A DNA stretch of 64,000 bases from an uncultured Armatimonadetes bacterium (GTDB lineage Bacteria > Armatimonadota > UBA5829 > DTJY01). Under the pieces are notes generated by a model. It did no database searches, was not told the origin of the DNA, and saw nothing but the letters and a program-made list of their open reading frames with translations. Each line of letters opens with the position of its first letter. Position 1 is the stretch's first letter. Position numbers and translations under genes: made by a program. The DNA lies in the NCBI GenBank assembly GCA_963717145.1, contig OY970325.1, positions 4,736,001-4,800,000 on the forward strand, given 5' to 3'. Below are positions 208 through 37,828 of this stretch, piece by piece.

Positions 208-845
208 GAATCTACGATGTTTCCGTGATCATTTCGGACGAGATGCCGATCTACGGCGACGATCCGGCGGTCGAGATCGAGCTGATCAGCGCCATAGCCA
301 GGGGAGACGGGGCGAATGTCTCCCTGTTGAAGCTCGGATCGCACACCGGCACGCACGTCGATGCGCCATTCCACTTCGTCGAAGGCGGCATGACGATCGA
401 CCGCGTGCCGCTCGATGTGCTCGTGGGAGAGTGCTACGTCTGTGAGATTCCGCCAACATCATCGGGTGGGGGCGCCATCACCGTGTCCGACCTCGAATCG
501 TGCGGCTTGCCTCAGGGATGCCGCAGGATCCTCTTCAAGACCTCCAACTCCCGTCTGTGGGAGGACAACCAGTTCCACACGGATTTCGTGTACCTCGATC
601 CGGACGCCGCGACGTGGCTCGTCGATCGGGGCATTCAACTCGTCGGCGTCGATTATCTCTCGGTGGACCGCTTCAAGTCCGGCACGCACCCCACTCATAT
701 GCGACTTCTTGGATCGGGGGCGGTGGCCATCGAAGGTTTGGATTTGAGGGAGGTGACTCGGGGTACATACTTCCTGGTGTGCCTCCCGCTCAAGATCCGG
801 GAGGGGGACGCCGCTCCGGCCCGCGTGATTCTCATCGAGATGTAG
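204..845 (+). CDS. Cyclase family / kynurenine formamidase-like metal hydrolase
   Basis: HTGTHVDAPFH motif, GVDYLSVD, PLKI..GDAAPAR. GTG start at 204 after GGAGGTG in a GTGA overlap with lnt. Confidence 0.9.
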   Translation: MRIYDVSVIISDEMPIYGDDPAVEIELISAIARGDGANVSLLKLGSHTGTHVDAPFHFVEGGMTIDRVPLDVLVGECYVCEIPPTSSGGGAITVSDLESCGLPQGCRRILFKTSNSRLWEDNQFHTDFVYLDPDAATWLVDRGIQLVGVDYLSVDRFKSGTHPTHMRLLGSGAVAIEGLDLREVTRGTYFLVCLPLKIREGDAAPARVILIEM

Positions 846-942
846 TGGCCGTGCCTCCGTGCCGGCCTTCGGGTATCATTGCCGTGCCTCCGTGCCGGCT
901 TCGCTGTCTTGGATGGCCGGCACAGAGGCACGGCCACTACAT
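840..942. repeat. GTAG-type REP doublet, family A (GTAGTGGCCGTGCCTCCGTGCCGGCC), with a third partial copy at 881-899
   Basis: Inverted arms 840-867 and 915-942. Same unit at 26481-26534, 27096-27195 and 37740-37828. Supplies the cyclase TAG stop. Confidence 0.9.
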
Positions 943-25334: not shown

Positions 25335-25435
25335 CGCCCGTTGCATCCACGCACTCGTTCCGCTATACTGGATCCCTCGAAGGCGGTGGCACGCATGAAC
25401 GCACTCATCGCGGCCGGGCTGTTCGCGATCATCGC
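25333..25435 (+). repeat. Direct repeat copy 1 of a promoter + RBS + first ~14 codons block
   Basis: Similar to 26007-26108; contains TTGCAT-17-TATACT (25341-25369) and ATG 25395 MNALIAAGLFAIIA. Confidence 0.85.
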
Positions 25436-25481
25436 GACAGGCGACACATCATCTCGTCGAATCCGTATCCGAGGTAGCCTG

Positions 25482-25925
25482 ATGGAGCGAAGCTCGCGAA
25501 CAAGTCTTGCCCAACTCGGTCTCGATGTGCTCATTCTGCTGCTGGCCGTCTGCGTCACGGCGGGCACGTCACTGGCGGTCTATATCGTGTTCGATCTCAT
25601 CGCGAGTGGGCGGGACGGCTCGTGGGAGGGCCTGTTGCTGTCACCTCACCTGGAGTTGTGGATTCTGGGGAGTGTGCTCGTGGGGCTGCTCGCAGGTGGA
25701 TTTGTGCTTGGCGCATATGCCCGACGCCCGTGGCTTCTGGGGACGATGCTTCCAGTCGCGTTCGTGGCGGCGGTGCTGCCATTCGCGCTGCCGGTCGTCA
25801 GACACCCCGACTTCATTGGTCTTCAGCCGGTGACCTGGGTTGCTGGGTTGGCCACCATTCCATTTGCCGGCTTGGCGGGCGTCGCTCTGGCTCGACGGCG
25901 TGACAGAACGGCTGTCCAGAAGTGA
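25482..25925 (+). CDS. Hypothetical membrane protein (about 4 TM); alternative in-frame start at 25395
   Basis: Four hydrophobic helices; GAGG RBS before ATG 25482. Confidence 0.6.
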   Translation: MERSSRTSLAQLGLDVLILLLAVCVTAGTSLAVYIVFDLIASGRDGSWEGLLLSPHLELWILGSVLVGLLAGGFVLGAYARRPWLLGTMLPVAFVAAVLPFALPVVRHPDFIGLQPVTWVAGLATIPFAGLAGVALARRRDRTAVQK

Positions 25926-26006: not shown

Positions 26007-26108
26007 AGCGCCCGTTGCATCAACATCCTCGTTCCGCTATACTGATTCCCTGGAAGGCGGTGGCCCTATGAACATGCTCATCGCGGCCGGGATACTCGCG
26101 ATCATCGC
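26007..26108 (+). repeat. Direct repeat copy 2 (native promoter and 5' end of the gluconolactonase gene)
   Basis: TTGCAT-17-TATACT (26015-26043), GAAGGCGGTGG, ATG 26068 MNMLIAAGILAIIA. Confidence 0.85.
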
Positions 26109-27087
26109 AGCGGTCCCGGCGACTAACGATAATAAGGAAACCAAGCCCATGCTGGATGCGAAATCCCCCGAGTTCTGGAAACTCGTCCCCAAGGACGCCG
26201 TGGTCGAGAAGGTCGCGGACGGATTCCATTTCACCGAAGGCCCGCTCTGGAGCAAGGCCGGATTCCTGGTCTTCAGCGACATCCCCGGCGACAACATCGT
26301 GAAGGTTACGTGGGACAAGGCCGGGAAGCCGGAGGTCGGCGTCCACCGCAAGGTGAGCGGCAACTCGAACGGCCTGACCTACGACATGCAGGGCCGCCTC
26401 GTCGCCTGCGAGCACGGAAACCGCCGGGTCACGCGCGAGGAGAAGGACGGCACGATCACCGTCCTCGCGTCGCACTTCGAGGCCGGCGCAGAGGCACGGC
26501 CACTACAGGCCGGCGCAGAGGCACGGCCACTACAGGGGAAGCGGCTCAACAGCCCGAACGATGTCGTCGTGAAGTCCGACGGCAGCATCTACTTCACCGA
26601 TCCGCCCTACGGATGCCCCGATCCTCAGCGCGAAATCAAGTTCCAGGGCGTCTTCCGCCTCTCGCCCGACGGGAAGCTCACCGTCGTGGCGGACGACTTC
26701 GACCGTCCGAACGGCCTCACGTTTTCGCCCGATGAGAAGACGCTCTACATCGCAGATTCGTCCTCCCGCCTGCATATTCGCGCGTTCGACGTGAAGCCCG
26801 ACGGCACGCTGGCGAACGGCCGCGTCTTCGTCAAGATGGATATCGGCGAGCCGGGCGGCCCCGACGGCATGAAGGTCGACGAGAAGGGCAACCTGTGGAC
26901 GACCGGCCAGGGCGGGGTATGGGTGCTCGACCCCAAGGGCAAGCTGCTCGGCATCATTCGCGTGCCCGAGTTGCCGGCGAACTGTGCGTGGGGCGACAAG
27001 GACGGAAAGACGCTGTATATGACCGCGCGCACCGGCCTGTACCGCATCCGAACGAGCGCGAAGGGCGTCAGGCCGTGGATGAAGTGA
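26068..27087 (+). CDS. SMP-30/gluconolactonase/LRE family protein (secreted) with an 18-aa REP-derived insert
   Basis: FTEGPLW, SNGLTYD, GKRLNSPND, PNGLTFSPD, PDGMKVD, ANCAWG. Confidence 0.92.
   Translation: MNMLIAAGILAIIAAVPATNDNKETKPMLDAKSPEFWKLVPKDAVVEKVADGFHFTEGPLWSKAGFLVFSDIPGDNIVKVTWDKAGKPEVGVHRKVSGNSNGLTYDMQGRLVACEHGNRRVTREEKDGTITVLASHFEAGAEARPLQAGAEARPLQGKRLNSPNDVVVKSDGSIYFTDPPYGCPDPQREIKFQGVFRLSPDGKLTVVADDFDRPNGLTFSPDEKTLYIADSSSRLHIRAFDVKPDGTLANGRVFVKMDIGEPGGPDGMKVDEKGNLWTTGQGGVWVLDPKGKLLGIIRVPELPANCAWGDKDGKTLYMTARTGLYRIRTSAKGVRPWMK
26481..26534. repeat. Two tandem 27-bp family A REP copies in frame inside the CDS
   Basis: GGCCGGCGCAGAGGCACGGCCACTACA x2 = AGAEARPLQ x2. Confidence 0.92.
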
Positions 27088-27095
27088 GACGCCCT

Positions 27096-27195
27096 CAAAC
27101 CCGTTGGGCCGATGTAGTGGCCGTGCCTCCGTGCCGGCCAGTGGCGTCGCAGGCCGGCACGGAGGCACGGCCACTACATCGGCCCAACGGGTTTG
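27096..27195. repeat. Family A REP doublet with extended arms (44-bp perfect inverted repeat, REPIN-like)
   Basis: Arms 27096-27139 and 27152-27195 are exact reverse complements, including flank beyond GTAG. Confidence 0.92.
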
Positions 27196-31248: not shown

Positions 31249-32985
31249 ATGTCAGTTGTAGGAAAGGGAGCAACAGTAGTGGCGGACTCTGCAGATATTG
31301 GGCACACGCGCGTTCGTGATCTCCAGGCGATCGGTATCATCGCGGCTGTCTGGATCGCAATGGTGATTATCACAGATCCGATCGGCGAGTTTCCGCTGAA
31401 TGATGACTGGTGCTATGCGGTATCTGTCCGGTCGCTCGTCCAGGAAGGAGCATTTCGCCTCGTCTCCATAGTTACGATGACTCTTGTGACGCAGGTGTTC
31501 TGGGGCGCCTTATTCTGCCTGCCGTTCGGTTTTTCCCACAACGCGTTGAGATTCTCCGGACTGGCCGCCGGCTTCCTTGGGTTGATTGGTACCTATCTTC
31601 TCCTGAAAGAGCTTGGCGCCAGCCAACGAATCGCTCTCATAGGCGCCCTTTTGGTTGCCGTCAACCCGATTTACTTTGGCCTCTCGAATACCTTTATGAC
31701 CGACGTGCCGTTCTACACGCTTGCGGTCTTCGCCATCTATGCGGCCGTCCGCGCCCTGAACCGCTTATCAAGCACGTACTACGCGGCGAGCATAGTGCTG
31801 GCGGTCCTTGCGATCCTGCTCAGGCAATCAGGCCTGGCGCTTCCTATCGCATTCGGCGCCGCGTATCTTGTCAAGGACGGCCTACGTCTTCGCGCAGTCG
31901 TGAAAGCCGGACTGCCGCTGGTTCTTGGAGCAGGTGCTCTGATAGCATACCAGTCCTGGCTGAACTCGCGGGGCAATCTCTCGGAGACTTTTGGGCTTCA
32001 AGTAGGGATGGCACCCAAGTTTCTCGATTACGGACCTGGTCCGATGGCACTTGCGGTATATACAGTCAGCCTGACGGGGCTAGTCTATCTGGGCCTCTTC
32101 CTTTTTCCCCTGTTAGTTCCAGCGTTTCTCAGCCGCTGGAAGTCCCATCCTTCTGTGCCGAGAGCCATCGGTCTTGCGGTCTTGACGTTCACGATCTATA
32201 TGCTGGGTCGCACGTTTGGCTGGATGGGAGGCATGCCACTTAGTCTTCATATCGGGGATATCATGACTCCGTTCGGGATGGGGCCGATGACGCTAAGCGA
32301 TGTTGTCGTCATGAAGCTGTTCAGCTTTACGCCTCTCCCCCAGGCATTCTGGTCATCGGTCACACTCGTATCCGTTACCGGCGCGGGCCTGCTGGTGCTT
32401 GAGGTTGGTTCAGCTGCGGTGGTGTGTCTTCGAAGGTGCCGGGGCAGCTGCAATCCGGCGAGACCGCTGCAGGCTATGATGCTTACAGGCGCTCTCGCAT
32501 CACTCGTACCTATAACCGTGCTGTTTTATTTCGCTTACTTTGACCGTTATTTCCTGGCATTGATTCCGTTTCTCGTCGGTTCAGTTGTGCTGGCCGGACG
32601 ACCCTTGATCACAAGAACGCGGATGGTCGTTATTGTTATTGTGCTCCTGCTCGGAGCCGTCTTCAGTGTCTGTGCGACGCACGACTACCTGGCGTGGAAT
32701 AGGATGCGGTGGGCCGCCCTCAACCATCTGACCATCGACAAGCGTATCCCAGCCTCCAAGATCGACGGAGGTTATGAATTTAATGGCTTATACAATTACG
32801 AGTCCAGGATGGAGCAGGGCATGTGGCATGAGATTGTCGAGGATTACGCGGTGACTTTTGCGCCGATTGATGGTTACGAGATTGTGGAACAACGCTTCTC
32901 ACGACGCTGGATGCCCTATGGACCGCAGTGTATCTATGTGCTTAAGGCGTGGGAATACTCGCCAGAATCCCAAACTACCCACTGA
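31249..32985 (+). CDS. GT-C fold membrane glycosyltransferase (ArnT/PMT_2, GT39-like)
   Basis: PLNDDW.Y acidic motif after TM1, FMTDVP, RQ motif, more than 10 TMs. Confidence 0.75.
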   Translation: MSVVGKGATVVADSADIGHTRVRDLQAIGIIAAVWIAMVIITDPIGEFPLNDDWCYAVSVRSLVQEGAFRLVSIVTMTLVTQVFWGALFCLPFGFSHNALRFSGLAAGFLGLIGTYLLLKELGASQRIALIGALLVAVNPIYFGLSNTFMTDVPFYTLAVFAIYAAVRALNRLSSTYYAASIVLAVLAILLRQSGLALPIAFGAAYLVKDGLRLRAVVKAGLPLVLGAGALIAYQSWLNSRGNLSETFGLQVGMAPKFLDYGPGPMALAVYTVSLTGLVYLGLFLFPLLVPAFLSRWKSHPSVPRAIGLAVLTFTIYMLGRTFGWMGGMPLSLHIGDIMTPFGMGPMTLSDVVVMKLFSFTPLPQAFWSSVTLVSVTGAGLLVLEVGSAAVVCLRRCRGSCNPARPLQAMMLTGALASLVPITVLFYFAYFDRYFLALIPFLVGSVVLAGRPLITRTRMVVIVIVLLLGAVFSVCATHDYLAWNRMRWAALNHLTIDKRIPASKIDGGYEFNGLYNYESRMEQGMWHEIVEDYAVTFAPIDGYEIVEQRFSRRWMPYGPQCIYVLKAWEYSPESQTTH

Positions 32986-35515
32986 CCTCTTTCGTCGCCT
33001 TTGCGAGGTCGAGGCGGCTGAGGTAGCGGATTCCGGGGACCTGGGAGATCAGGACCGCCGCGAGGATTCCGACGATCGTCCATGCATAGGTCTTCGGCAG
33101 GATGTGCGTCTGCATGTGGAACGACTCGCTGACGTAAAGCTTCACGAACTTGTCGGCGAGCCAGTTTCCGAGCGGAAGTCCGATGATTGTGCCGACGATC
33201 CACGTGCTGAGGTTCTCGATCGTTACCATCAGCGCCACCCGCCGGCCGCTCACTCCGAGCGCGCGCATCGAGGCGATCTCCCTCGTCCGCTCCAGGATGT
33301 TCATCGTCGTGGCGTTGAACACGATGATGATCGCCAGCGCCATCGCAAACCCGAGCATGACGTTGACGAAGGTCGTGAACCCCTTGATCATCTCCTCGAC
33401 CTGCTGCCTGGTGTCCGTCATGTTGATCACGGCGACCACTCCGGGGATGTCGTACAACTGATCGGCGACCCAGTCCGCGTGCCGGATGTCCGTCCGCACC
33501 ATGATCCCGCTGATCGCGTTCGGCGGAAGCTCCATCGGTCGCCCGTAGATGCGCCGCACCTCGTCGATGTTCATGATCGTGGCGTTCCCGATCGGCTGGA
33601 AGAGCGTCCGGACGATTGGGACCTGCTCCTCCATCTCGACCTCCTGCAGGCTCCGGCTCAGGGCGACGACCTCCTTCCGGAAGCGCGCGGGCGGGCGTGG
33701 AAGCACCGCCCCTACGGAGTCCGAGGGCCCGTAGGGGAGGACTTCAACGGCCTCCCGCTCCGTCGGGGATATGTCCGCCAACTCCGGGATCGTGTTCTCC
33801 GGGAGCGTGAGCGTGACCCGGCGGCCCATCGAGAGGCCGAGCGCCTGGATTGTCGGCGTTCCCATCGCGATCCCCTTTCTGGGCACGGAGAACGTGCTGC
33901 CGTCCGGAGCGGTCAGGCTCAACAGGCGGCAGTCGAGCGGGATGCCGTAGATGACGGTCGTCTTCTCCAAGCCGCCGTTCACGAGCTTGACCGGCACCTC
34001 CATGATCGGCTCGGCGCGCTCGACGCCCTTCCAGGTCCGCACCTGGCCGATGACGGACTCGGTCTGTGGGTGAAGGAATCGCGCGAAGACGTCGTACCGC
34101 TGGACCTTGTCGAAGTAGAAGAGCACCGAGTACTGCGACGAGTCGATCAGCCCCGATGAGACGAGGATCAGCGTGATGGCGGAGGCAATTCCGGCGATCG
34201 TGGAGAACGTCCGCTTCGGATTGCGGAACAGGTTGCGGAATGGCAGCCGCCAGGTGTAGGTCAGCTTCCCAATCATCGGGAGCGCCCGCTCGACCATCGG
34301 CACGCGGTGACCGCTCGGGACGTCGGTGCGGATCGCTTCGGCGGGGGTGAGCTTCGCCGCTGAGAAGGCGGGGAGCATCCCTGCGACGAGCGTGACGACG
34401 AGCGCGATCCCGACTCCGAGCGCCATCGGCCCGGGACGCGGATGCATGTCGTAGAATGGCACGTTCACCATCCGCGTATACAGCATCGTGATGTAGATGC
34501 CCATGCGGTACCCCAGGAGACTTCCGATCACCGAGCCCAGGATGCCGATCAGCACCGCGAACCCCATGTAGTGGTGCAGCACGGCGGCCCGGCTGTATCC
34601 GACCGCCCGCATGAACCCGATCTGCGGGCGCTGAGCATAGACCATCCGGCTGAGCAGGTTGTAGACGCTCAACGAGGCGATGCTCAGGAAGAGGATCGGG
34701 AAGAAGATGGCAAGGCTCTTCAGGGCGATGAGGTCCATGTTGAGCATCTCGTAGCCTGCCTGCTTCTCCATCGGAAGCGGATCGTCCGCGCCGTATGACC
34801 TGAGCACCTGGTGGACGGCCTGCATGACGGCCTCCCTCCGGACGCCCGGCCGGATCGTCACCTGCACCTGGTTGATCGCGCCGGATGTGCCGAACAGCCG
34901 ATCGACCATCTCTTTGCGCATGAACATCACGCCGAAGTGCTTCGGGCTGGGCATCGGCTGGTCGCGGCTTCTGAGGACCACGATGTATTCCGGCGACTTG
35001 ATGATCCCTGCGATCCGGAACCTGATCTCATCGCCGCCGACGACCGGGTACATGAAGTCGCCCGGCTCGTAGTTGTTCCGCCTTGCGAACCCGGATTCGA
35101 GGAGCAGCTCGCGCTTGTTTCCGGCGGAGGGCATCTTACCTCGAATGATCTGAAGTTGGTTCACCGCCGGGAGACTCTTGTCGGGGATCGAGATGATCCG
35201 CCCGCTCACGCGCTTGGGCACTATATTCTTCTGCTCGGCTTCGAGGTCTTCGATCAGTCGCCCCTCGGCCTGCATGACTCCCGGGATGCGGAGGACCCGA
35301 TCGACGACCTGCTCCGGCGCGGACTGGGTATCGATGGTGAAGTCCGCCATGTGGAGCTTCCGGTACGACAGGTTGTACGACCTGTCGAGGTTCAGATAGG
35401 CGAGATATGTGGCGTCGAAGAGCGCGATCCCGGCTGCGACCATCAGCACGACGCCGATGAACAGCCAGGGCGAGAATCGTATGTCACGGATCAGTTTGAG
35501 GTTGATCTTCAGCAT
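32975..35515 (-). CDS. FtsX/MacB-like ABC exporter permease (two FtsX domains)
   Basis: QRPQIGFMRAVGYS and ERTREIASMRALG; two periplasmic domains; REP-derived insert near 33689-33756. Confidence 0.9.
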   Translation of the reverse strand: MLKINLKLIRDIRFSPWLFIGVVLMVAAGIALFDATYLAYLNLDRSYNLSYRKLHMADFTIDTQSAPEQVVDRVLRIPGVMQAEGRLIEDLEAEQKNIVPKRVSGRIISIPDKSLPAVNQLQIIRGKMPSAGNKRELLLESGFARRNNYEPGDFMYPVVGGDEIRFRIAGIIKSPEYIVVLRSRDQPMPSPKHFGVMFMRKEMVDRLFGTSGAINQVQVTIRPGVRREAVMQAVHQVLRSYGADDPLPMEKQAGYEMLNMDLIALKSLAIFFPILFLSIASLSVYNLLSRMVYAQRPQIGFMRAVGYSRAAVLHHYMGFAVLIGILGSVIGSLLGYRMGIYITMLYTRMVNVPFYDMHPRPGPMALGVGIALVVTLVAGMLPAFSAAKLTPAEAIRTDVPSGHRVPMVERALPMIGKLTYTWRLPFRNLFRNPKRTFSTIAGIASAITLILVSSGLIDSSQYSVLFYFDKVQRYDVFARFLHPQTESVIGQVRTWKGVERAEPIMEVPVKLVNGGLEKTTVIYGIPLDCRLLSLTAPDGSTFSVPRKGIAMGTPTIQALGLSMGRRVTLTLPENTIPELADISPTEREAVEVLPYGPSDSVGAVLPRPPARFRKEVVALSRSLQEVEMEEQVPIVRTLFQPIGNATIMNIDEVRRIYGRPMELPPNAISGIMVRTDIRHADWVADQLYDIPGVVAVINMTDTRQQVEEMIKGFTTFVNVMLGFAMALAIIIVFNATTMNILERTREIASMRALGVSGRRVALMVTIENLSTWIVGTIIGLPLGNWLADKFVKLYVSESFHMQTHILPKTYAWTIVGILAAVLISQVPGIRYLSRLDLAKATKEVSG
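33689..33756. repeat. Two back-to-back GTAG REP units in frame inside the permease
   Basis: 33731-33756 GTAGGGGAGGACTTCAACGGCCTCCC (25/26 identical to family B); minus strand 33715-33689 GTAGGGGCGGTGCTTCCACGCCCGCCC. Confidence 0.85.
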
Positions 35516-35538
35516 CTGAGTCGAAAGCACCGCAATGT

Positions 35539-37739: not shown

Positions 37740-37828
37740 TCGTAGTGGCCGTGCCTCCGTGCCGGCCTTCCGGGTCAGGCGAGTAAGGTCGGAAAGGGAA
37801 GGCCGGCACGGAGGCACGGCCACTACGA
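37740..37828. repeat. Family A REP doublet
   Basis: 32-bp inverted arms 37740-37771 and 37797-37828; supplies the TAG stop (37823-37825) of the permease. Confidence 0.92.

What the first reader, a model, noticed from the sequence alone, without database searches (positions are those of the whole stretch)
26481..26534. Intergenic REP unit inserted twice, in frame, into a gluconolactonase beta-propeller
Seen: two exact tandem 27-bp copies of the window's family A GTAG REP sit inside the CDS and add AGAEARPLQ-AGAEARPLQ. Deleting the 54 bp cleanly gives SHFEGKRLNSPND, the usual SMP-30/gluconolactonase motif. Known: coding-sequence invasion by palindromic repeats is described for Rickettsia palindromic elements, whereas GTAG REPs are generally extragenic. 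Inference: this REP family can enter genes and create new loop peptides, because its 27-bp length and this frame are stop-free.
Basis: partly seen in the sequence, partly recalled or inferred. Interest (0 to 1): 0.8.

Follow-up and report, generated by a model that had tools for sequence, protein, structure and literature searches.

The report
REP repeat doubled inside lactonase gene
Two head-to-tail copies of a small mobile DNA repeat sit in frame inside a sugar-lactonase gene and add an 18-residue floppy loop; this is a clean new example of a behaviour already described for such repeats.

Summary
Window 26481-26534 holds two exact tandem 27-bp units in frame in an SMP-30/gluconolactonase (SGL) gene (26068-27087, +). 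They add AGAEARPLQ twice. None of the 18 aligned orthologues has these 18 residues, and two related genomes have an uninterrupted empty site.

The unit belongs to a GTAG-tagged REP family with 305 copies in this 5.37-Mb genome. Most copies are inverted pairs (REPINs). The family has its own REP-associated tyrosine transposase (RAYT) gene, flanked by REP arrays.

This genome carries more such inserts. Six other genes hold family-A REPINs in frame, each checked against orthologues. Other repeat families give dozens of unverified candidates.

Di Nocera et al. 2013 (PMC3733652) already catalogue GTAG REPs inside genes, and earlier notes of this scan report three more cases in this genome.

Three things are particular here. 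The insert is a gap-free head-to-tail pair of single REP units. Every junction is a C|T, the dinucleotide RAYTs cut in vitro. The insert lies 8 residues before a conserved Asn that I recall to be a metal ligand.

The source reads were not found, so the copy number rests on the assembly alone. Verdict: real, a new member of a known kind, moderate interest.

The parts
26068..27087 (+). SMP-30/gluconolactonase/LRE-family (SGL) gene, 339 aa including the insert; six-bladed beta-propeller with a hydrophobic N-terminus
   Evidence: ORF and translation. Pfam PF08450, E 5.6e-53. AF2 model with mean pLDDT 85.1. Best PDB folds are 3e5z and 3dr2, both gluconolactonases. dN/dS is 0.15 against the G006 orthologue and 0.25 against the G001 orthologue.
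26481..26507 (-). REP unit 1. Its GTAG-reading strand is the window's minus strand. It encodes AGAEARPLQ on the plus strand.
   Evidence: It differs by 1 mismatch from the commonest family variant. It forms a small hairpin of -7.4 kcal/mol as ssDNA.
26508..26534 (-). REP unit 2, identical to unit 1, head-to-tail with no spacer
   Evidence: It is the only '++' cluster with a gap of 0 among the 156 family-A clusters in the genome.
26534..26536 (.). AGG (CCT on the GTAG strand), repeated at 26480-26482 and 26507-26509. This is the 3-base junction redundancy, and it contains the C|T dinucleotide at every junction.
   Evidence: TRF extends the periodicity to 26480-26536. Read laying reports 3 bases that fit both sides of the 54-bp skip. 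The minus strand was read. The empty site in G001 is TTCG|AGGGCAAG.
27096..27195 (.). Family-A inverted pair (REPIN, cores 27114-27177) starting 9 nt after the stop codon of the same gene, nested in a longer perfect palindrome
   Evidence: Hairpin of -47.9 kcal/mol, z -14.9. The outer flanks are complementary over 12 of 12 bases.
841..941 (.). Intergenic family-A inverted pair with a 47-bp spacer
37741..37827 (.). Intergenic family-A inverted pair with a 33-bp spacer

Best explanation
This is a real and recent insertion of two head-to-tail copies of one GTAG-tagged REP unit into a lactonase gene. The unit is a 26-bp conserved core plus one base.

Shown:
- The family has 305 copies. Most are inverted pairs.
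- A cognate RAYT gene is flanked by REP arrays.
- Relatives have an uninterrupted empty site.
- The insert is in frame and stop-free, and every residue that is invariant in the alignment is kept.
- The 18 added residues are predicted to be a disordered loop between the last strand of one blade (130-134) and the first strand of the next (166-168). The insert ends 8 residues before Asn164.

Inferred:
- The unit was placed by the RAYT acting on single-stranded DNA. On the GTAG strand the locus reads C|T-unit-C|T-unit-C|T, and the empty site has one C|T at the same spot. C|T is the dinucleotide RAYTs cleave in vitro.
- The second copy arose either by a second insertion at the regenerated C|T or by slippage between the flanking CCT triplets.
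- The loop peptide is most likely a tolerated passenger, not an adaptation. Insertions that are out of frame or carry a stop would have been purged.
For: Family and transposase:
- There are 305 copies at up to 4 mismatches, in 156 clusters. Of these, 118 are inverted '-+' pairs, mostly with a 13-bp spacer.
- The conserved core is 26 bp and ends in CTAC.
- A Y1_Tnp match lies at G000 3783917-3784243. Its ORF scores 101 bits against NCBIfam NF047646, REP-associated tyrosine transposase, cut-off 80. It lies between a run of 5 direct copies and a 4-copy array of this family.
- At up to 2 mismatches the family has 314 copies here, against 8 and 9 in the two nearest genomes.

Insertion:
- 18 of 18 aligned orthologues lack the 18 residues.
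- The empty sites are TTCGAA|GGCAAG in G006 and TTCGAG|GGCAAG in G001.
- Contigs from three public runs of three studies skip exactly these 54 bp.
- The two copies are identical, and they differ by 1 base from the commonest variant.

Junctions:
- The minus strand reads TTCCC C|T GTAG...GGC C|T GTAG...GGC C|T CGAAG.
- 286 of 305 copies have CA or CT at the 3' edge of the core.
- RAYTs cleave at C|T or C|A, 5' or 3' of the REP (passages of PMC8266576).

Tolerance:
- pLDDT is below 50 for residues 141-155, in a model with mean pLDDT 85.
- dN/dS is 0.15 and 0.25.
- 5 of 6 frames of the unit are open.
- Six other genes carry in-frame family-A REPINs that are missing from orthologues: PFL-like, NurA, peptidase M16, IorA-like, and two without a Pfam match.
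Against: - No reads or contigs of the filled allele were seen. The best public run holds 0.20 of the sampled words, and what was laid from the four runs comes from relatives or from other copies of the repeat. The insert, and above all its copy number of two, therefore rests on one assembly.
- The family's usual form is the inverted pair, and this site has none. Bertels and Rainey 2011 (PMC3116915, passages) hold that single REPs are immobile remnants.
- Only 28 of 305 copies have CT directly 5' of GTAG. The 5' C|T seen here is not the family rule.
- A 3-base junction redundancy also fits microhomology-driven slippage or template switching.
- This segment has a constant length in 90 of 92 homologues and is close to a conserved Asn. 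Harmlessness is assumed, not shown.
- No expression or protein data exist.
Confidence: 0.75

Rival explanations
1. A route that does not use the transposase. One REP copy was written into the gene by microhomology-mediated template switching or gene conversion from another REP locus, and was then doubled by replication slippage between the flanking AGG/CCT triplets. The RAYT plays no part.
For: There is 3-base redundancy at all three junctions. The two copies are exactly identical, as expected after a slippage duplication. Each unit forms a small hairpin that could stall a fork. One other exact copy of this variant exists, at G000 1399768, as the arm of an ordinary pair.
Against: The boundaries coincide with the edge of the conserved core, and with the C|T or C|A site found in 286 of 305 copies. 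Random template switching would not be expected to respect that edge. Three bases of homology are few for slippage.
Confidence: 0.25
2. An assembly artefact. The 54 bp, or the second copy, are not in the organism's DNA.
For: The source reads were not found. Consensus calling can miscount short tandem repeats. One earlier scan note calls this assembly rich in frame errors (e1-7282440, unchecked).
Against: The insert is an exact member of a 305-copy family, and it is in frame with clean flanks. Six other genes show the same kind of in-frame insert. An error would not be expected to favour multiples of three.
Confidence: 0.06
3. The loop has been put to use. The 18-residue insert acts as a lid or a new binding surface near the active-site face of the propeller and is kept by selection.
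For: The insert ends 8 residues before Asn164. Asn164 aligns with Asn134 of the solved gluconolactonase 3dr2, which I recall to be a metal ligand. A relative seen in run X2 carries a different insert of about 72 nt at the same spot.
Against: The two copies are identical and nearly the same as the master sequence, so there has been no time for selection on the peptide. The model predicts disorder. The same REP-coded peptides occur in unrelated proteins. No relative shares the peptide.
Confidence: 0.08
4. The gene has been inactivated by the insert and is on its way to becoming a pseudogene.
For: The segment has a fixed length in 90 of 92 homologues. The insert is recent, so decay would not yet show.
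Against: The frame is open over 339 codons, and every alignment-invariant residue is kept. The propeller is predicted with confidence on both sides of the insert. dN/dS of 0.15-0.25 mostly reflects the time before the insertion, so it is weak evidence here.
Confidence: 0.1

Closest known systems
Intragenic GTAG-tagged REPs as catalogued by Di Nocera, De Gregorio and Rocco 2013 (PMC3733652). I read the abstract, passages and part 1 of Additional file 3.
   Same: A short hairpin repeat with a terminal GTAG, present in high copy number and linked to a RAYT gene flanked by REPs ('REPtron'). Some copies lie wholly inside ORFs of known proteins and encode 7-30 residues, as single units, dimers or groups. 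That paper also defines head-tail (HT) dimers.
   Different: The lineage and the REP sequence family differ. The host gene (SGL lactonase) is not in their table: a search of the supplements found 0 hits for gluconolactonase or SMP-30. Here the filled site and its empty counterpart can be compared to the base, which that paper did not do for its cases in the parts I read.
REPIN-RAYT systems (Bertels and Rainey 2011, PMC3116915; abstract and passages)
   Same: The family is mainly inverted doublets that fold into long hairpins (118 of 156 clusters; -47.9 kcal/mol), with a RAYT gene present.
   Different: That model takes the doublet as the replicating unit and the singlet as a dead remnant, and describes extragenic elements. 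This site is built only of single units in direct orientation, looks recent, and lies inside a gene.
Rickettsia palindromic elements (RPEs), as summarised in PMC3733652; the original papers were not read here
   Same: Palindromic repeats inserted in frame in genes that probably stay functional, adding surface peptides.
   Different: According to PMC3733652, RPE-4 and RPE-6 belong to the CGTC class, for which no dedicated transposase is known, and RPE-1 is much longer. The element here is GTAG-type, has a 27-bp unit and has a RAYT.
TnpA-REP (RAYT) biochemistry (Corneloup et al. 2021, PMC8266576, passages; Ton-Hoang et al. 2012, PMC3333891, search listing only)
   Same: Cleavage of single-stranded REP at C|T (or C|A), 5' or 3' of the hairpin, with GTAG acting as guide. 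The junctions at this locus are all C|T on the GTAG strand.
   Different: Those are in vitro reactions with proteobacterial enzymes. Integration into a chromosomal target has not been shown there, and nothing was tested for the enzyme of this genome.

Membership tests
GTAG-tagged REP / REPIN-RAYT system | Conserved GTAG tetranucleotide at one end of the unit | tested here: met
   CTAC (GTAG on the other strand) is kept in at least 301 of 305 copies at each of its four positions, and in both units of the insert.
GTAG-tagged REP / REPIN-RAYT system | Short imperfect palindrome next to the tag that folds as single-stranded DNA | tested here: met
   A 5+2 bp stem; -7.4 and -6.4 kcal/mol on the two strands; z -2.6 and -2.2. 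The stem is short compared with the 6-9 bp usual in PMC3733652.
GTAG-tagged REP / REPIN-RAYT system | High copy number, dispersed over the genome | tested here: met
   305 copies in 156 clusters over 5.37 Mb.
GTAG-tagged REP / REPIN-RAYT system | Inverted doublets forming a long hairpin (REPIN) | tested here: not met
   Met for the family (118 of 156 clusters) but not for this site, which is a direct head-to-tail pair with no inverted partner within 150 bp.
GTAG-tagged REP / REPIN-RAYT system | Cognate RAYT gene flanked by the same REPs | tested here: met
   PF01797 match. NF047646 at 101 bits, cut-off 80. The ORF shows an HLH motif and a conserved Tyr region. REP arrays lie on both sides.
GTAG-tagged REP / REPIN-RAYT system | Mobilisation by the RAYT | not testable with these tools
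   The only support is indirect: C|T at all junctions and CA or CT at the core edge in 286 of 305 copies.
SMP-30/gluconolactonase/LRE (PF08450) lactonases | Match to the family profile over its whole length | tested here: met
   180.5 bits, cut-off 26.3, profile positions 1-244 of 246.
SMP-30/gluconolactonase/LRE (PF08450) lactonases | Six-bladed beta-propeller fold | tested here: met
   AF2 model with pTM 0.84. Foldseek hits 3e5z at E 1.6e-25 and 3dr2 at E 2e-23.
SMP-30/gluconolactonase/LRE (PF08450) lactonases | Conserved metal-binding Glu/Asn/Asn/Asp | tested here: inconclusive
   E57, N164, N215 and D266 are invariant in the 19-sequence alignment. E57 and N164 align with E48 and N134 of 3dr2. 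That these four residues are the ligands is recalled, not taken from a call.
SMP-30/gluconolactonase/LRE (PF08450) lactonases | Lactonase activity | not testable with these tools
Rickettsia palindromic elements | Membership of the RPE sequence families (CGTC-type RPE-4/6 or the long RPE-1) | tested here: not met
   The unit is GTAG-tagged and 27 bp long. The RPE classes are as given in PMC3733652. It behaves like an RPE but is not one.

The most novel reading that the evidence does not exclude
The single REP unit, 27 nt bounded by C|T on the GTAG strand, is itself a mobile unit. The RAYT pastes it into a C|T target, and can paste it again into the C|T that it regenerates, giving gap-free head-to-tail arrays. 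If so, this locus and its base-exact empty site in relatives are a natural record of RAYT integration in vivo. [quoted passage not shown] It also offers defined donor and target oligonucleotides for a first integration assay.
Probability: 0.3. Interest if true: 0.55.

Novelty: new member of a known kind. Interest (0 to 1): 0.35.

Why it matters
REP and REPIN elements are among the commonest bacterial repeats, yet how they are inserted has never been shown in a cell. Most copies are old and their empty sites cannot be reconstructed. Here the insert is young: the two copies are identical, the flanks are untouched, and relatives keep the empty site. The junctions can therefore be read to the base, and they match the C|T cleavage known from test-tube work.

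The genome as a whole is a heavily decorated one. Seven genes were verified for one family and dozens of candidates exist for others. That makes it a good place to ask which protein sites tolerate 9-30 added residues, and whether some sites are hit repeatedly.

On its own, the lactonase case adds an example and does not establish a new principle.

Tried and rejected
- **Ancestral loop lost in relatives.** Rejected: 18 of 18 aligned orthologues and 90 of 92 measurable homologues have the short form, and the extra DNA is a member of a 305-copy repeat family.
- **Reads of the source.** The look-up of sequencing runs gave 24 rows, none holding more than 0.20 of the sampled words. Laying X1-X4 showed only relatives and other copies of the repeat; no piece spans the filled site. 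This says nothing for or against the filled allele.
- **Recovering the different insert seen in run X2.** A second protein search limited to residues 96-200 listed 120 proteins. None of them except P0001 matches as if it carried the insert: the next best scores 163 bits against 230. The first metagenome pattern scan gave 0 stretches. The second gave 1 stretch, L127, a distant paralogue in which the left anchor sits earlier in the gene, so it is not a filled site.
- **Naming the lineage from the lactonase.** The nearest titled record in genome contigs is an 'uncultured bacterium'. The nearest named protein hits are Armatimonadota MAGs at 60-63% identity, which is too weak for taxonomy. Earlier scan notes say Armatimonadota five times and verrucomicrobium once (unchecked).
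- **Other family-A candidates.**
  - GHMP-kinase-like gene (L026) and a DUF6259 protein (L023): orthologues align straight through with similar length, so insertion versus replacement could not be decided.
  - L025: no usable orthologue.
  - L027: the REPIN lies between two genes that are separate in relatives, so it is a read-through fusion and not an insertion into a domain.
- **First coordinates for the ORF.** They were one base off and gave stop codons; corrected.

Full report
**The observation.** Window 26481-26534 consists of two identical 27-bp units, GGCCGGCGCAGAGGCACGGCCACTACA, with nothing between them. Tandem Repeats Finder reports 26480-26536, period 27, 2.1 copies, 100% matches. 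The units lie in frame in an ORF whose likely start is the ATG at 26068 and whose stop is at 27085-27087. The protein has 339 residues, and the insert reads AGAEARPLQAGAEARPLQ at residues 139-156. Pfam PF08450 (SMP-30/gluconolactonase/LRE-like region) covers residues 55-320 at E 5.6e-53.

**It is an insertion.**
- A search of the large protein collection gave 7999 relatives at E <= 1e-20, of which 120 were listed. The five nearest are 321-322 residues long, 17 or 18 fewer than the query.
- In an alignment of the query with 18 of the 119 listed relatives (chosen down to 55% identity), all 18 have a gap of exactly 18 columns between ...HFE and GKRLNSPND.
- Over all 120 sequences, both flanking motifs could be located in 92. 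Of these, 90 have a spacing of 24-25 residues, the query has 43, and one value is a regex artefact in a fused protein. Only the query contains EARPL.
- At the DNA level, the two nearest genomes held (same family, different genera) read CACTTCGAA|GGCAAG and CACTTCGAG|GGCAAG where the window has 54 extra bases, and the flanks align without any other gap.
- Contigs of three public metagenome runs from three studies join 26479 to 26534, skipping exactly 54 bases, with three bases that fit either side.

**What the unit is.**
- The whole genome is one contig of 5,366,867 bp at 60.6% G+C. It holds 305 copies of the 27-mer at up to four mismatches, in 156 clusters.
- 118 clusters are inverted pairs with the GTAG ends outward, mostly with a 13-bp spacer. 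24 are single units. The rest are small groups.
- The lactonase site is the only direct pair with no gap.
- Conservation is sharp over 26 bases, GGCCGGCACNGAGGCACGGCCACTAC, and stops at both edges.
- One unit folds into a small hairpin (-7.4 kcal/mol). The inverted pair just after the lactonase gene folds into a 74-nt hairpin of -47.9 kcal/mol.
- The genome has seven matches to the Y1 transposase family PF01797. The one at 3783917-3784243 lies between a run of five direct copies and a four-copy array of this same repeat. It scores 101 bits against NCBIfam NF047646, REP-associated tyrosine transposase, cut-off 80.
- This is therefore a GTAG-tagged REP/REPIN family with its RAYT.
- The family is greatly expanded here. 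At up to two mismatches there are 314 copies, against 8 and 9 in the two nearest genomes, 2 to 22 in four others, and none in 24 of the 30 relatives searched.

**Other genes in the genome are affected too.**
- I looked for stop-free frames spanning a family-A copy with at least 60 codons on each side. That gave 70 ORFs.
- I kept those in which a codon-usage score made that frame the best of six on both flanks: 17 ORFs.
- Eleven were fetched and scanned together with one weaker candidate, and ten were compared with five related genomes.
- In six of them the orthologue is continuous where this genome has the REPIN, leaving 23-36 extra residues:

| Gene |
|---|
| pyruvate-formate-lyase-like enzyme |
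| NurA-domain protein |
| M16 peptidase |
| IorA-like oxidoreductase |
| protein without a Pfam match (L020) |
| protein without a Pfam match (L024) |

- Two cases stayed ambiguous and one had no usable orthologue.
- In one case the REPIN sits between two genes that are separate in relatives but are read as one frame here.
- The same alignments showed inserts from two other repeat families in the PFL-like and IorA-like genes.
- The codon-usage filter alone gives 22 of 78, 14 of 87, 8 of 85, 1 of 103 and 0 of 83 clusters as in-frame candidates for five other families. These are unverified.

**How the insert got there.** On the strand that reads GTAG (the window's minus strand) the locus is TTCCC C|T GTAG...GGC C|T GTAG...GGC C|T CGAAG. 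The empty site of G001 is TTGCC C|T CGAAG. Each unit is thus bounded by C|T, and the target has a C|T at the point of entry.

RAYTs of Escherichia coli, Stenotrophomonas and Marinomonas cut single-stranded REP DNA at C|T (one of them also at C|A), 5' or 3' of the hairpin, with GTAG acting as guide (passages of PMC8266576). In this family, 286 of 305 copies have CA or CT exactly at the 3' edge of the core, which fits a cleavage site there. Only 28 of 305 have CT directly before GTAG, so the 5' junction seen here is not typical.

I infer that the RAYT pasted a single unit into the C|T. The second copy came either from a second insertion into the regenerated C|T or from slippage between the CCT triplets. 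A route by template switching without the transposase fits the three-base redundancy equally well, and I rank it second. None of this was tested.

**What it does to the protein.**
- The AlphaFold2 model (19-sequence alignment, mean pLDDT 85.1, pTM 0.84) is a propeller. pLDDT falls below 50 only at residues 1-25 and 141-155.
- The insert lies between strand 130-134 and strand 166-168.
- The best solved folds are the gluconolactonases 3e5z and 3dr2. In sequence alignments to both, the insert is unmatched.
- Asn164, eight residues after the insert, aligns with Asn134 of 3dr2, and Glu57 aligns with Glu48. I recall these to be metal ligands of that enzyme; no call showed it.
- From the usual topology of such propellers, I infer that the link from the outer strand of one blade to the inner strand of the next runs over the face that bears the active site. 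The loop would then sit at the rim of that face. I could not read coordinates to check this.
- All columns invariant in the alignment are kept in the window's protein.
- dN/dS against the two nearest orthologues is 0.15 and 0.25, though this mostly reflects time before the insertion.
- The unit is open in five of six frames.
- The most likely reading is a tolerated passenger loop. The fixed length of this segment in the family means that some cost cannot be excluded.

**What is already known.** Di Nocera, De Gregorio and Rocco 2013 (PMC3733652; abstract, passages, part 1 of Additional file 3) sort REPs into GTAG and CGTC classes and describe head-head, tail-tail and head-tail dimers. They list REPs lying wholly within ORFs in many species, most of them in Opitutus terrae and Rickettsia conorii, encoding 7-30 residues or more. 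Their supplements contain no gluconolactonase.

Bertels and Rainey 2011 (PMC3116915; abstract and passages) argue that the doublet is the replicating unit and that singlets are defunct.

Earlier notes of this scan, on other windows of the same genome, already report in-frame REP-type repeats in a DinG-like helicase gene, in iorA and in hemA. I confirmed the iorA case independently and did not check the others.

The phenomenon is therefore in print and has been seen before in this genome. The lactonase case is a new member. Its particular points are the gap-free head-to-tail pair of single units and the junctions readable to the base.

**Limits.**
- No public run holds the filled allele. The presence of the insert, and especially its copy number, rest on the assembly.
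- A contig of run X2 carries about 72 other bases at the same spot. I could not read them.
- The lineage is not settled by my calls.

Noticed in passing
window 26475-26542, as seen in run X2: A 654-nt contig of a close relative replaces these 68 bases by 86 other letters. That is about 72 bases more than the empty site and is in frame: a different insert at the same spot of the lactonase gene. The letters were not shown and could not be recovered.
   Followed up: partly
window 33700-33760, minus strand, in ORF 32975-35530: An 851-aa membrane protein (unnamed here; no family scan was run) contains two GTAG-type units of two other repeat families, tail to tail, read as ...EREAVEVLPYGPSDSVGAVLPRPP.... 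Orthologues in four related genomes are 18-20 residues shorter overall. The position of the gap was not seen.
   Followed up: partly
window 27096-27195: The inverted pair after the lactonase gene is nested in a longer perfect palindrome, CAAACCCGTTGGGCCGAT ... ATCGGCCCAACGGGTTTG, starting 9 nt after the stop codon. About 10 of the 118 family-A pairs have unique outer flanks complementary over 8-12 bases or more, including the one inside the IorA-like gene, where neither flank exists in orthologues. The insertion seems to carry or create an inverted copy of flank.
   Followed up: partly
L021 (G000 1279732-1282380, minus strand): The pyruvate-formate-lyase-like glycyl-radical enzyme gene carries four repeat insertions in one open frame of 883 codons, against an open frame of 803 in the G006 orthologue. 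They are a family-A pair, a single family-B unit and two copies of a GGTTCTGGAG...CTCCAGAACC palindrome.
   Followed up: partly
L027 (G000 3773951-3775297, minus strand): Two siroheme-decarboxylase-like genes (NirD/L or AhbA/B type) are separate in four relatives, each with a stop between them. Here they are read as one 449-codon frame through a family-A inverted pair: a possible gene fusion with a REPIN-coded linker.
   Followed up: partly
G000 3783598-3784515 (L004): The RAYT gene of family A has five direct REP copies with a 38-bp period on its left and a four-copy array on its right. The first ATG of the listed ORF lies inside a REP, so the true start is probably the second Met. Six further PF01797 matches in the genome were not examined.
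   Followed up: partly
window 25341-25925 and 26068-26160: The ORF upstream of the lactonase and the lactonase itself begin with near-identical hydrophobic N-termini, MNALIAAGLFAIIA and MNMLIAAGILAIIA.
   Followed up: no
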